The position numbers were made by a program, and so were the translations under genes. Below are positions 57,219 to 60,188 of a DNA stretch of 64,000 nucleotides, piece after piece (position 1 is the first letter of the stretch; each line of letters begins with the position of its first letter). This DNA is from Muribaculaceae bacterium (GTDB lineage Bacteria > Bacteroidota > Bacteroidia > Bacteroidales > Muribaculaceae). The notes below the pieces were generated by a model. The model ran no database searches. It was given only the letters and a program-made list of their open reading frames with translations, and had not been told where the DNA came from. The DNA lies in NCBI GenBank assembly GCA_023664185.1, contig JAMPGA010000001.1, positions 839,473-903,472 on the forward strand, read 5' to 3'.

Positions 57219-58538
57219 TCAATTATTCCATATTCCTGTGGCGGTGCCCCTTATGAGAGCCATGCATTGGCGTCCGCTCCATATAAGCCTAAGCAGGCTT
57301 ATGGCAGAGAGTGTCACGGGAATGCCTGCCACTCCGATGTGGCCACACAGGTAGATGGCCAAAGGAATGAACAGGACGGTTTGGATGATTTCGGCGCAGA
57401 ACTGCACTTTGAGTTTTCCGGTGCCGTTGATGAAGTTGACAAAGATATTGCCCGGAATCAGGAGCACCACATATAGTGCACACCATAGAGTCAGAGCCAA
57501 GGGGATATTCACCTCGCTCTTCAGCCAGATGCGGTAGACTGGGGCTGAGAGGAGCGTCATGGCCACCGCTATGGCGCAGAGCAAGCCCCACATGCCCAGC
57601 AGACGGCGCAGGGTGGAGTTCATCCAGGACAGGTCATTTTTTGTATACGCCTCTGTCACAGCCGACCATACAGGGGTCAACACAATGTTTGATACCAGCA
57701 GAAGCACTGAAAAATACTTGTAGGCAAGATTGTAGGGGGTCACCTCGGCCGGACCCAGGAGGTGGGAAATGATGATGTTTGACGATAAAAATATCACCAC
57801 CGTGGTGATCTGTATAACAAAAAATCGTGCGCTCAGCGACGCCAGCTGTCCGAAAAGCCTCAGACGTATGTACTTGATCGACGGCCGCAGAAACCTGTAT
57901 CGGCTGAACACCACGGGATACATGGCCACATATACCAGCGCCGGTACTGCCGTGAAGATAAGAGCCACCAGCTGCAGCGACGATGCCGTGGTGCGGGTGA
58001 TGATCCATATCAGCACCAGCGAGATGAGGCTGCCGATAAAGTAGATGATGTCGTTCATGGCCGGCTGCTGAAGGGCAGTGTAGACTGTGCCAACCAGTCG
58101 CACTATAAAGGTGAGACACGTGAATCCCACCACGATGAGCATGGTCGAACCCAGCGAGCTGACTCTGGCGGGCTCTACATTGAGCATGCTATACCAATCT
58201 ATCCACCGACTGGCGGCCAGATATAGCAGAAAGAAAGTCCCGATTATCACGGCGAGCACAAAAAATGTGGTGCTCACGTAGATACGCCCGCTCTCGGTGT
58301 CCTCGTGGGCCATGGCCTCGGCAAGCTTGTTGCGCAGGCCGTTGCCCAGCCCTATGTCGAGCAGGAAAATCCAGCTCACTGTGGTGCTTATGGTTAGCCA
58401 CACACCATACTCGTAGTCGTTGAGATAGTCAAGGGTTATGGGAACCACGATGAAGGAAATCAGCGCGGCGCCCCCTCTGAACACAGAGGAAGCCAGGATG
58501 TTTTTAACTACGTTGCGGCTGCGGGTGTTGGTGATCAA
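57219..58538 (-). CDS. wzx: Polysaccharide flippase (MOP/MATE superfamily)
   Basis: YG.WLTIS, DIGLGNGLRNKLAEA, about 12 TM segments; TTG is the only in-frame start near the predicted N-terminus. Confidence 0.88.
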   Translation of the reverse strand: MITNTRSRNVVKNILASSVFRGGAALISFIVVPITLDYLNDYEYGVWLTISTTVSWIFLLDIGLGNGLRNKLAEAMAHEDTESGRIYVSTTFFVLAVIIGTFFLLYLAASRWIDWYSMLNVEPARVSSLGSTMLIVVGFTCLTFIVRLVGTVYTALQQPAMNDIIYFIGSLISLVLIWIITRTTASSLQLVALIFTAVPALVYVAMYPVVFSRYRFLRPSIKYIRLRLFGQLASLSARFFVIQITTVVIFLSSNIIISHLLGPAEVTPYNLAYKYFSVLLLVSNIVLTPVWSAVTEAYTKNDLSWMNSTLRRLLGMWGLLCAIAVAMTLLSAPVYRIWLKSEVNIPLALTLWCALYVVLLIPGNIFVNFINGTGKLKVQFCAEIIQTVLFIPLAIYLCGHIGVAGIPVTLSAISLLRLIWSGRQCMALIRGTATGIWNN

Positions 58539-58544
58539 GGTTGA

Positions 58545-58844
58545 GAGTGTGTCTAATAAAGGGTGTTAACGCGTAGGGTTCATGTTATGAGATGTGTTTA
58601 TCGATGCAGTTTCGGGAGTGTACTGGATGTACACGACTGAAACAAAGCGATAAAGACATCCATAGCATGAAGTCAAATCATTCTTTCTTTTCGCGTTATT
58701 TCGCCTCATAAGACTTTTATAAATTCTGAAATGTTGTTTTAACGAGTGTGAATTAACGAAAGTTACCTCGGCTCGGCCACTCTTTGCCGCTTTTTGTCTA
58801 AAGATTGGCCCCCTACACGTTAACATCCTTTATTAGACACACTC
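58545..58844. mobile_element. 300-bp MITE-like element with 34-bp terminal IRs and TGA target duplication
   Basis: GAGTGTGTCTAATAAAGGGTGTTAACGCGTAGGG (58545-58578) versus reverse complement of 58811-58844 matches 32/34; TGA at 58542-58544 and at 58845-58847. Confidence 0.75.
58566..58826 (-). CDS. 86-aa ORF spanning the element from IR to IR (translation unproven)
   Basis: ATG lies in the right IR, TAA in the left IR, same frame as wzx; no recognisable family. Confidence 0.3.
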   Translation of the reverse strand: MLTCRGPIFRQKAAKSGRAEVTFVNSHSLKQHFRIYKSLMRRNNAKRKNDLTSCYGCLYRFVSVVYIQYTPETASINTSHNMNPTR

Positions 58845-59081
58845 TGAGTCAAGACAAAATCTTCCATTCCGGCCTCCTGTAAAAGAAGCCGACAAAGCAG
58901 GGATGGCTCGGAGTTTTTTCTGCGACCCGACGAGAGATCGCTGCGAGGCTCGCCACGGCTTCCTGACCCAGGCAGTCGGTAGGCGCATCCCGGTGTCTGT
59001 CTCCTTTGTTGCGGCTCTGTGGCCGGGACAGTGAACAGACTCACTTCCCTGTATGGCGATCAGCCGGAGCTAATCCGGGCG

Positions 59082-59113
59082 CAAATTTACAGAATATTTG
59101 TGGTATATCCAAA
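59082..59113 (-). promoter_or_regulatory. Consensus Bacteroidetes sigma-A promoter driving the glycan locus
   Basis: TTTG (59113-59110) - N20 - TAAATTTG (59089-59082) on the minus strand. Confidence 0.75.
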
Positions 59114-59117
59114 TTTG

Positions 59118-60188
59118 TCAGAGGTAGTGGCGCAGGGGGTGAGGGGAGCATATCGTTCCGGGTGGGATGGGTGTGCCGAGATCGTGAGGGGTCAGGGAGG
59201 TGCCGTCGGGGAGCAGGAGCAGATAGTCGTCGTAGGGGAGAAGCCGGAAGCTGTCAGCGAGTGTGAAACCGGCGGGGAGGGCTATGTCGTCACTCGCGAT
59301 CATCGGCACAGAGCTCGGGAAGGCTTTGAGATATGCCTGCCGCAACAACTGATGGAGCGTGGCGGGAGTAGATGTGAGGCATCGACGCCCGATGCACGAT
59401 ATTTCTGAGGGCATATCGGGAGGAGTAGCCGCTGGGAGGATGAGTATATTCCCTTTCACATCGAATCCCTCTGGCGTGTGGGTAACGATGAATTCGGCTA
59501 TCTTTCTGCCATATGCGCCGGGGTTTATTATGGTAGTGCCAGCTGCAGAGGTGACACCGGGATTGCTGTGGACGTGTCCGCTCACTATGAGGTCGATTCC
59601 GACGGTCTGCGCGGCTATTTCAGCGCACTCCTGCGGCCCCAGGTGGAAGAGCCCCACGGTGAGATCAGGGGTGGCGGAAGCCCGCAGTGAGGCGAGGACG
59701 GAGCGGATACTCTCCAGAGGGTCAGCGATCTCCGCACCCTGCCATCCGGCCAGTGCGCACTCCGGGGTGACGAGCCCAATGACAGCAATGAGCCATCCGT
59801 CAGCCCGAATCAGTGTCCATGGCTTCACATTGTCAACTCCTCGGAGATTAGCTGCAAGCAGCGGTGCTGTTAGTGTGGCGCCATATTGGCTGAATGCCTC
59901 CGGCCCGGCATCAAGATCATGGTTGCCCGGCGCCATGGCGTCATATCCGGCTTCGTTGGCAAGAAGAGCCGGAAGATTAGGCGAGCGGGTCAGCAGATGG
60001 TTTGCCGCATAGGCCGGCAGCCCGCCCCCCATAAAGTCGCCTGCGTCGAGCAGAAGGTGGGGCATGGGGTATGACGACACAAACTCCCTCACCCGAGCCA
60101 GCGAGCCGACATCGGGGCGGGGAGTTTGCTGTCCGTTGTAATAGAGACCGTGGAGGTCTGTGGTGGCCAGTATACCAAACTGTTTCAT
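59118..60188 (-). CDS. Calcineurin-like metallophosphoesterase (5'-nucleotidase/CpdB N-terminal domain) with reduced C-terminus
   Basis: TTDLHG, DAGDFMGG, GNHDLD, LFHLG, SGHVH; no signal peptide. Confidence 0.82.
   Translation of the reverse strand: MKQFGILATTDLHGLYYNGQQTPRPDVGSLARVREFVSSYPMPHLLLDAGDFMGGGLPAYAANHLLTRSPNLPALLANEAGYDAMAPGNHDLDAGPEAFSQYGATLTAPLLAANLRGVDNVKPWTLIRADGWLIAVIGLVTPECALAGWQGAEIADPLESIRSVLASLRASATPDLTVGLFHLGPQECAEIAAQTVGIDLIVSGHVHSNPGVTSAAGTTIINPGAYGRKIAEFIVTHTPEGFDVKGNILILPAATPPDMPSEISCIGRRCLTSTPATLHQLLRQAYLKAFPSSVPMIASDDIALPAGFTLADSFRLLPYDDYLLLLPDGTSLTPHDLGTPIPPGTICSPHPLRHYL

What the first reader, a model, noticed from the sequence alone, without database searches (positions are those of the whole stretch)
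58542..58847. 300-bp MITE-like element with 34-bp IRs sitting just before the first gene of the glycan locus
Seen: 34-bp inverted repeats (32/34 identical, outer 18 perfect) starting with GAG, flanked by a direct TGA repeat. The element lies between the consensus promoter (59113-59082) and the wzx TTG (58538). Known: GA(A/G) ends with a 3-bp TNA duplication are typical of IS5-family IS1031-group elements, and Bacteroidales glycan loci are often phase-varied by IR-bounded inversions. Inference: this is a non-autonomous IS5-derived MITE that may now act as a regulatory or invertible cassette. I found no full TAnnTTTG promoter inside it (best match TAACTTTC at 58765-58758), so it is not a standard invertible promoter. 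No recombinase or transposase is adjacent.
Basis: partly seen in the sequence, partly recalled or inferred. Interest (0 to 1): 0.75.

Follow-up and report, generated by a model that had tools for sequence, protein, structure and literature searches.

The report
Orphan IS5-type MITE before wzx
The 300-bp inverted-repeat element is a real but ordinary miniature transposon (a transposase-less derivative of an IS5-family insertion sequence, 11 copies in this Muribaculaceae genome) that landed in the untranslated leader 3 bases before the wzx start codon; nothing indicates that it is an invertible switch.

Summary
Observation confirmed. Window 58545-58844 is a 300-bp element with 34-bp terminal inverted repeats (32/34) and a duplicated TGA.

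It is one of 11 copies (67-358 bp, 81-96% identical) in this 2.1-Mb Muribaculaceae genome. Nine have perfect 3-bp TNA target duplications. All 11 are intergenic.

A congener (G005) carries a 1124-bp autonomous IS with GAG ends, a TAA duplication and a 251-aa IS5-family transposase. Its ends share the same modules: a related TIR, a subterminal hairpin and an AAGTTACC box. So the MITE/IS5 reading is supported.

No matching transposase exists in the assembly, so the family looks orphaned there.

The closest relative (G067, Wzx 75% identical) keeps the promoter and leader but lacks the 303 bp at the homologous TGA. That is an empty site.

The element lies in the 5' leader, not in the coding sequence. 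The Pfam Wzx profile begins at residue 10 of the TTG-started ORF.

The invertible or regulatory idea is not supported:
- no Bacteroidetes-type promoter inside
- no serine recombinase in the genome, and the nearest tyrosine recombinase is 43 kb away
- metagenome contigs show only the filled site in the reference orientation

The element is most likely a passenger. At most it is mildly inhibitory, because its 35-bp RNA stem abuts the start codon. New member of a known kind; low interest.

The parts
58545..58844 (.). MITE-A copy, 300 bp, a non-autonomous IS5-family element
   Evidence: 11 genomic copies, alignable end to end, flanked by TNA duplications.
58545..58578 (+). Left terminal inverted repeat (34 nt), GAGTGTGTCTAATAAAGGGTGTTAACGCGTAGGG
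   Evidence: It shares the GAG..TGTC..TAATAAA..GTTAACGC..AGG layout with the TIR of the G005 IS.
58811..58844 (-). Right terminal inverted repeat (34 nt), matching the left arm at 32/34
58542..58544 (.). Left copy of the 3-bp target-site duplication (TGA)
   Evidence: Nine of 11 copies have matching TNA flanks.
58845..58847 (.). Right copy of the 3-bp target-site duplication (TGA)
58607..58643 (.). Subterminal hairpin module, CAGTTTCGGGAGTGTAC-TGGAT-GTACACGACTGAAAC, inherited from the parent IS end
   Evidence: About 93% identical over 28 nt to the right-end hairpin of the G005 IS. Present in related MITEs of G004, G007 and G074. The stems covary between the conserved flanks GRGA and GACYG.
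58758..58778 (.). GAAAGTTACC-TCGGCTCGGCC box, the second module shared with the parent IS ends
   Evidence: GGAAGTTACCATCGCCTCGGCC lies downstream of the transposase stop in L047.
57219..58538 (-). wzx-type flippase gene (439 aa, TTG start). The MITE's duplication ends 3 nt upstream of the start codon.
   Evidence: Pfam Polysacc_synt, E = 1.3e-11, residues 10-290 against profile positions 1-265. Homologue N-termini and the G067 comparison support this start.
58848..59081 (-). Original 5' leader of the wzx operon, about 235 nt before the insertion
   Evidence: 69% identical to the G067 leader over 198 nt. The alignment is interrupted only by the 303-bp insert.
59082..59113 (-). Bacteroidetes-type promoter, TTTG-N20-TAAATTTG
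   Evidence: The only perfect match in 58400-59200. Conserved in G067.

Best explanation
Window 58545-58844 is one copy of a miniature inverted-repeat transposable element (here called MITE-A). It consists of the two roughly 150-bp ends of an IS5-family insertion sequence with the transposase gene deleted. Such elements move only when a cognate DDE transposase supplied in trans binds the 34-bp terminal repeats, cuts the element out and inserts it at a TNA trinucleotide, which is duplicated. That happened here at a TGA in the untranslated leader of a wzx-wzy-glycosyltransferase operon, 3 nt upstream of the wzx TTG start. This assembly has no cognate transposase, so the family is probably immobile here. 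The copy is transcribed as part of a leader lengthened from about 235 to about 540 nt. Its two arms form a 35-bp RNA stem that ends 6-8 nt before the start codon. The expected effect on wzx is neutral to mildly inhibitory (inferred, not shown). It is not an invertible promoter cassette. Shown: repeat structure, copy number, target duplications, relatedness to an autonomous IS5-family element, the empty site in a relative, and position relative to promoter and start codon. Inferred: mobilisation in trans, present immobility and the effect on expression.
For: - The genome holds 11 copies of 67-358 bp, 81-96% identical where they align.
- Nine of the 11 have perfect 3-bp TNA duplications: TGA, TAA x3, TTA x5.
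- All 11 copies are intergenic.
- Congener G005 has a 1124-bp IS (L047:718-1841) with GAG ends, a 33-bp TIR and a TAA duplication.
- Its 251-aa transposase scores 177 bits on NF033580 'IS5 family transposase' (cut-off 110). It also matches PF01609, PF13340 and PF13586.
- The IS ends align module by module with MITE-A: TIR, hairpin and AAGTTACC box.
- Related MITEs with TAA duplications occur in G004, G007 and G074.
- No transposase was found in the genome. Six-frame HMM searches with PF01609 and PF13586 gave 0 hits. tblastn with the G005 transposase found only a 17-aa stub. No contig end runs into such an IS.
- Empty site: G067 (Wzx 75% identical) aligns on both sides, and 18 nt there correspond to 319 nt here. 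A TGA stands at the homologous position.
- The Wzx Pfam profile starts at residue 10. The upstream frame differs between this genome and G067, so the insert lies in the leader, not in the CDS.
- The TIR stem is predicted with z = -9.4. Positions -20 to -8 are fully paired in the filled form.
Against: - No autonomous element with this exact TIR was found anywhere. The pattern gave 0 hits in GTDB species genomes and JGI metagenome contigs. The closest IS shares only about 65% of TIR positions.
- The genome is a 15-contig MAG, so a multi-copy IS could have been lost in assembly or binning.
- Two of the 11 copies lack matching duplications.
- The effect on wzx expression is untested. Predicted accessibility of the start codon itself changes little: mean P(unpaired) is 0.43 filled against 0.49 empty.
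- Logan contigs drop rare variants, so low-frequency excision or inversion cannot be excluded.
Confidence: 0.87

Rival explanations
1. The MITE has been co-opted as a cis-regulator of the glycan operon. Three routes are conceivable. Its 35-bp arm duplex in the mRNA could be an RNase III or translation-blocking structure. A weak outward promoter (TCGCTTTG at 58650 with a TTTG 23 nt upstream) could drive wzx. Or the in-frame 86-codon open frame (ATG 58826 to stop 58566) could relay ribosomes from the leader to the wzx start.
For: - The insert sits 3 nt from the start codon, and the stem pairs positions -20 to -8.
- 303 bp keeps the upstream frame, the MITE open frame and wzx all in one frame.
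- An open frame of 65-87 codons on that strand persists in 7 of 10 longer copies.
- Downstream genes are intact.
Against: - Changes among copies are spread evenly over codon positions, 17/20/18, so there is no coding constraint.
- In the ancestral 358-bp copies the TIR ATG is out of frame with that open frame.
- The -7 box candidate lacks the conserved A, and TAACTTTC has no -33 box.
- The upstream leader frame is not conserved in G067.
- The same element sits at 10 unrelated sites, and the insertion is absent from the closest relative. Nothing indicates selection for it.
Confidence: 0.08
2. The element is an invertible, phase-variable cassette. A site-specific recombinase would flip the 232 bp between the 34-bp repeats to switch the glycan locus, as with Bacteroides capsule promoters.
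For: Inverted repeats lie between a promoter and the first gene of a glycan locus. One 'opposite strands' joint (58578/58801) appeared in two metagenome runs at 90% likeness.
Against: - There is no TAnnTTTG promoter inside on either strand.
- The promoter lies outside the repeats and is conserved in a relative that lacks the element.
- There are 11 copies with TNA duplications, and the element is related to a DDE-transposase IS.
- The genome has no PF00239 serine recombinase. The nearest PF00589 hit is 43 kb away and outside the window.
- The odd joint disappears at 99% likeness.
- An exact contig (58742-58840, depth 26.5 against 22 in the flanks) carries the reference orientation at full depth.
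Confidence: 0.02
3. The insertion disrupts wzx. On this view the true start was the ATG at 58988, 47 codons upstream and in frame once the 303 bp are removed, so the element truncates the flippase and makes the locus a pseudogene-in-waiting.
For: Joining the flanks gives an uninterrupted frame from ATG 58988 into wzx. The ATG and the first roughly 9 codons resemble those of G067.
Against: - The Pfam profile starts at position 1 at residue 10 of the TTG-started ORF.
- Homologues start 7-21 residues before the KKN motif.
- In G067 the region after that ATG is in a different frame from wzx and stops 20 nt before it. It is therefore not an N-terminal extension.
- The 47 residues are Arg/Ser-rich and unlike a Wzx N-terminus.
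Confidence: 0.03

Closest known systems
IS5-family insertion sequences, IS1031/IS427-type subgroup (single roughly 250-aa DDE transposase with a DUF4096 N-terminus, GAG ends, 3-bp TNA duplication; subgroup traits from my own knowledge of ISfinder)
   Same: GAG termini, 3-bp TNA duplication, and a TIR and subterminal modules shared with a congeneric IS whose transposase passes NF033580.
   Different: It has no transposase gene, is 300 bp instead of about 0.9-1.1 kb, and no autonomous copy with the identical TIR was found.
Bacterial MITEs derived from IS elements (for example the Neisseria Correia-type and IS1106/IS5-related elements, and the Porphyromonas gingivalis MITEs); large catalogues exist for Bacteroidota (bioRxiv 10.1101/2024.01.18.576219; PMC5306136)
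   Same: Short, TIR-bounded, multi-copy, intergenic and genus- or species-specific. It has deletion derivatives of 358, 300, 280, 188 and 67 bp.
   Different: The family is a new sequence. It is not found at over 85% identity in any of 57 congeners, in GTDB species representatives, in JGI metagenome contigs or in phage records.
Bacteroides invertible capsule promoters (IR-flanked promoters flipped by Mpi or Tsr recombinases; own knowledge)
   Same: Inverted repeats upstream of the first gene of a glycan locus.
   Different: There is no promoter inside and no recombinase. It is multi-copy with target duplications, and the real promoter is outside and fixed.
IS insertions that activate Bacteroides genes from outward promoters (cfiA, nim and erm activation; reviewed in PMC9330008)
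   Same: A mobile element inserted a few nucleotides upstream of a start codon.
   Different: No consensus outward promoter was detected, and the native promoter is still present upstream.

Membership tests
MITE (non-autonomous IS derivative) | Short (under about 500 bp) with terminal inverted repeats | tested here: met
   300 bp with 34-bp TIRs matching at 32/34.
MITE (non-autonomous IS derivative) | Multiple copies, each with its own target-site duplication | tested here: met
   11 copies, 9 with perfect TNA duplications.
MITE (non-autonomous IS derivative) | No transposase coding capacity | tested here: met
   The only open frame shows no codon-position bias (17/20/18) and no family hit. 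The internal sequence aligns to IS ends only.
MITE (non-autonomous IS derivative) | Ends shared with an autonomous IS that could mobilise it | tested here: inconclusive
   A congeneric IS (L047) shares the TIR layout (about 22/34), the hairpin (93% over 28 nt) and the AAGTTACC box. No IS with the identical TIR was found.
MITE (non-autonomous IS derivative) | Empty site in a related genome | tested here: met
   G067 lacks the 303 bp at the homologous TGA, with both flanks aligned.
IS5 family (parent element) | DDE transposase of the IS5 family | tested here: met
   For the related IS only: NF033580 at 177 bits against a cut-off of 110, and PF01609 at 5.9e-20. There is none in this genome.
IS5 family, IS1031 subgroup | GAG ends with a 3-bp TNA duplication | tested here: met
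   The subgroup definition is recalled from ISfinder and was not checked here.
IS5 family, IS1031 subgroup | Transposase clusters with IS1031-group transposases | not testable with these tools
   ISfinder and a subgroup reference set are not available.
Bacteroidales invertible promoter | A promoter lies between the inverted repeats | tested here: not met
   The scan for TTTG-N15-24-TAnnTTTG found only 1-mismatch -7 boxes inside. The perfect promoter lies outside, at 59113-59082.
Bacteroidales invertible promoter | Both orientations present in a population | tested here: inconclusive
   Only the reference orientation is seen in exact contigs of two runs. Contigs drop rare variants.
Bacteroidales invertible promoter | A cognate site-specific recombinase (Mpi-type serine or Tsr-type tyrosine) | tested here: not met
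   No PF00239 hit in the genome. The nearest PF00589 hit is 43 kb away and there is none in the window.

The most novel reading that the evidence does not exclude
The ends of this IS5 lineage, and therefore every MITE copy including this one, carry a subterminal hairpin whose stem varies with compensatory changes between the conserved flanks GRGA and GACYG. This hairpin may be a functional structured module, for example a transposase-binding DNA hairpin or an RNA element that acts on transcripts reading through the element. Placed 3 nt before the wzx start, together with the 35-bp arm duplex, it would then impose post-transcriptional control (RNase III processing or a translation gate) on the glycan operon of this species.
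Probability: 0.08. Interest if true: 0.45.

Novelty: new member of a known kind. Interest (0 to 1): 0.2.

Why it matters
The main value is for annotation. The repeat is a mobile-element scar, not a phase-variation switch, so the glycan locus should be annotated with a fixed promoter and a MITE-bearing leader. It also records a species-specific MITE family, and a second one, in a small Muribaculaceae genome that appears to have lost the matching transposase. Such families are useful as strain markers and as an example of orphaned non-autonomous elements. If the insertion does dampen wzx expression, it would be one route to strain-level differences in surface glycans, but that is untested.

Tried and rejected
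- Rfam at a permissive threshold on 58400-59200 gave only chance-level hits.
- The sigma-70 and terminator scan found no terminator in the element on the mRNA strand. Its sigma-70-like hits are not relevant to Bacteroidota.
- Exact-TIR pattern scans of GTDB species genomes and JGI metagenome contigs gave 0 hits.
- Comparing 23 IS5-type transposase loci of the genus with the MITE found no closer parent than the G005 IS.
- There was no match among phage records.
- There were no RNA runs, so expression could not be examined.
- Read-level tests for inversion or excision are limited to Logan contigs of three metagenome runs from one study. These break at the repeat.
- One 'opposite strands' joint at 90% likeness vanished at 99%, so it belongs to another copy.
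- The idea that the element interrupts the wzx coding sequence was considered and rejected.
- The idea that the 86-codon open frame is a gene was rejected.

Full report
**1. The observation**

The region reads exactly as described. The repeat finder reports a single inverted pair, 58544-58578 / 58811-58845, 35 nt, 94% complementary, 232 nt apart. The outermost pair is the A and T of the two flanking TGAs.

- The element proper is 58545-58844 (300 bp) with 34-nt arms. The arms differ at positions 19 and 28, and the outer 18 nt are identical.
- TGA is duplicated at 58542-58544 and 58845-58847.
- Folded as RNA on the mRNA strand, the region has z = -9.4 against dinucleotide shuffles.
- The 439-aa ORF 57219-58538 (minus strand, TTG start) is a Wzx-type flippase (Pfam Polysacc_synt, E = 1.3e-11).
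- It is followed by a Wzy-like gene and three glycosyltransferases.
- Upstream lie a metallophosphoesterase, a DUF3108 protein and thymidine kinase.

**2. It is a repeated mobile element**

The window is contig C7:839473-903472 of a 2.12-Mb, 15-contig assembly. By thymidine-kinase relatives the organism is a Muribaculaceae of the Duncaniella type.

- The genome holds 11 copies of the element: 358 bp (x3), 301, 300, 299, 296, 280, 188 (x2) and 67 bp. They are 81-96% identical to this copy where they align.
- Nine of the 11 are flanked by a perfect 3-bp direct repeat of the form TNA: TGA, TAA x3, TTA x5.
- All 11 are intergenic.
- The 358-bp form is the most complete. The 300-bp form, including this copy, has lost a 58-bp right-hand hairpin module, and the shorter forms are further internal deletions.

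**3. Its origin**

Weak matches in congeners led to related MITEs with TAA duplications in G004, G007 and G074. They also led to a full-length IS in G005 (locus L047:718-1841).

- That IS is 1124 bp, with ends GAGCCTGTCCCATAATAAATGTTAACGCTGAGG, a TAA duplication and one 251-aa ORF.
- The ORF passes NCBIfam NF033580 'IS5 family transposase' (177 bits, cut-off 110). It also matches Pfam DDE_Tnp_1, DUF4096 and DDE_Tnp_1_2.
- Its plasmid-borne relatives are all annotated as IS5 family transposases.
- The two ends of this IS align module by module with the two halves of MITE-A. The modules are the TIR, a hairpin flanked by GGAG and GACYGAA, and a GAAAGTTACC-TCGGC..GGCC box.

MITE-A is therefore the fused ends of an IS of this lineage. 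Subgroup membership itself needs ISfinder and was not tested.

**4. No parent in this genome**

- Six-frame HMM searches of the assembly with PF01609 and PF13586 gave no hit.
- tblastn with the G005 transposase found only a 17-residue stub. The stub belongs to a second MITE family that is 86-92% identical to the G005 IS ends.
- No contig end runs into such an IS.
- Among 58 genomes of the genus, MITE-A at over 85% identity is found only here.
- Its TIR has no exact match in GTDB species genomes or JGI metagenome contigs. There is no match in phage records.
- None of 23 IS5-type loci in the genus is closer than the G005 IS.

The family looks orphaned. One caveat applies: a MAG can lose multi-copy ISs during assembly or binning.

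**5. Where exactly it sits, and the empty site**

The closest relative with this locus is G067 (Wzx 75% identical).

- Its promoter, leader and the start of wzx align with this window on both sides of the element.
- Between the aligned blocks this genome has 319 nt where G067 has 18 nt. G067 has a TGA at the homologous position. This is the predicted empty site in diverged form.
- The Pfam profile begins at position 1 at residue 10 of the TTG-started ORF.
- Homologues begin 7-21 residues before the conserved KKN motif.
- Removing the 303 bp does open the frame up to an ATG at 58988. However, the corresponding stretch in G067 is in another frame and stops 20 nt before wzx.

So the element lies in the 5' leader, with its duplication ending 3 nt before the start codon. 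It does not lie in the coding sequence.

**6. What it does there**

- No TAnnTTTG promoter lies inside. The best candidates are TAACTTTC without a -33 box, and TCGCTTTG, which lacks the conserved A.
- No intrinsic terminator lies on the mRNA strand, so read-through from the native promoter is expected.
- In the predicted mRNA the arms form a 35-bp duplex that pairs positions -20 to -8.
- The start codon itself stays about as accessible as in the reconstructed empty leader: mean P(unpaired) is 0.43 against 0.49.

A mild negative effect on initiation, or RNase III cleavage, is plausible but only inferred.

- That frame exists and is in phase with wzx.
- Changes among copies fall evenly on codon positions (17/20/18), so it is not under coding constraint.
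- In the ancestral 358-bp form the TIR ATG is out of frame with it.

**7. The inversion idea**

- The genome has no serine recombinase.
- Its five tyrosine-recombinase hits all lie outside the window, the nearest 43 kb away.
- In two metagenome runs that hold this locus at single-copy depth, exact contigs join each flank to its arm. One exact contig (58742-58840) carries the reference orientation at full depth.
- No empty-site or inverted joint is seen at 99% likeness. An 'opposite strands' joint seen at 90% likeness disappears at 99%, so it comes from another copy.
- Contigs cannot exclude rare variants.

**8. Verdict**

The suggestion of an invertible or regulatory cassette is not supported. 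MITEs are abundant and catalogued in Bacteroidota (bioRxiv 10.1101/2024.01.18.576219) and known in Porphyromonas (PMC5306136). This is a new sequence family of a well-known kind, and interest is low.

Noticed in passing
L047:718-1841 (G005); own-genome copies outside the window, for example C7:1046984-1047357, C9:95457-95624, C13:2257-2460: A second MITE family (MITE-B) occurs in at least about 10 copies in the window's genome. It is 86-92% identical to the ends of the G005 IS, and one copy keeps the first 17 codons of the transposase. The transposase itself is absent from the assembly.
   Followed up: partly
window 58607-58643; L047:765-815 and 1745-1780: The subterminal hairpin of this IS5 lineage has conserved flanks (GRGA...GACYG) but at least 6 different, internally complementary stems. 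Examples are GTGTAC/GTACAC, GCAATGC/GCATTGT, GTGTGGC/GCCACAT and GTTATGG/CCATAAC. This is compensatory variation that suggests a structural role. The GTGTAC version has very high depth in the metagenome runs, so it is common in the community.
   Followed up: partly
own genome outside the window: C7:139042-139057, C7:471148-471163, C7:1158753-1158768, C7:191345-191360, C7:642534-642549, C7:181589-181604, C4:9158-9173: There are seven solo stubs of the MITE-A terminus. Each has 13-20 nt of GAGTGTGTCTAAT..., most are preceded by TNA, and none has a partner arm nearby. They may be deletion or excision scars. The mechanism is unexplained.
   Followed up: partly
window 58848-59081 and L053:1304-1485: The roughly 235-nt wzx leader has blocks conserved with G067, including an ATG followed by MR.P..WVR. 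In G067 this forms a 40-codon upstream ORF ending 20 nt before wzx. It could be a leader peptide or a leader RNA. It was not seen upstream of more distant wzx genes.
   Followed up: partly
own genome, contig C12 (55.8 kb): The first and last 55 nt of contig C12 are identical. It may therefore be a circular replicon, either a plasmid or a phage.
   Followed up: no
own genome C14:30772-31067 and C8:218470-218657: Two MITE-A copies lack matching flanks (TCA/TAT and ATA/TCA). This could be flank mutation or recombination between copies.
   Followed up: no
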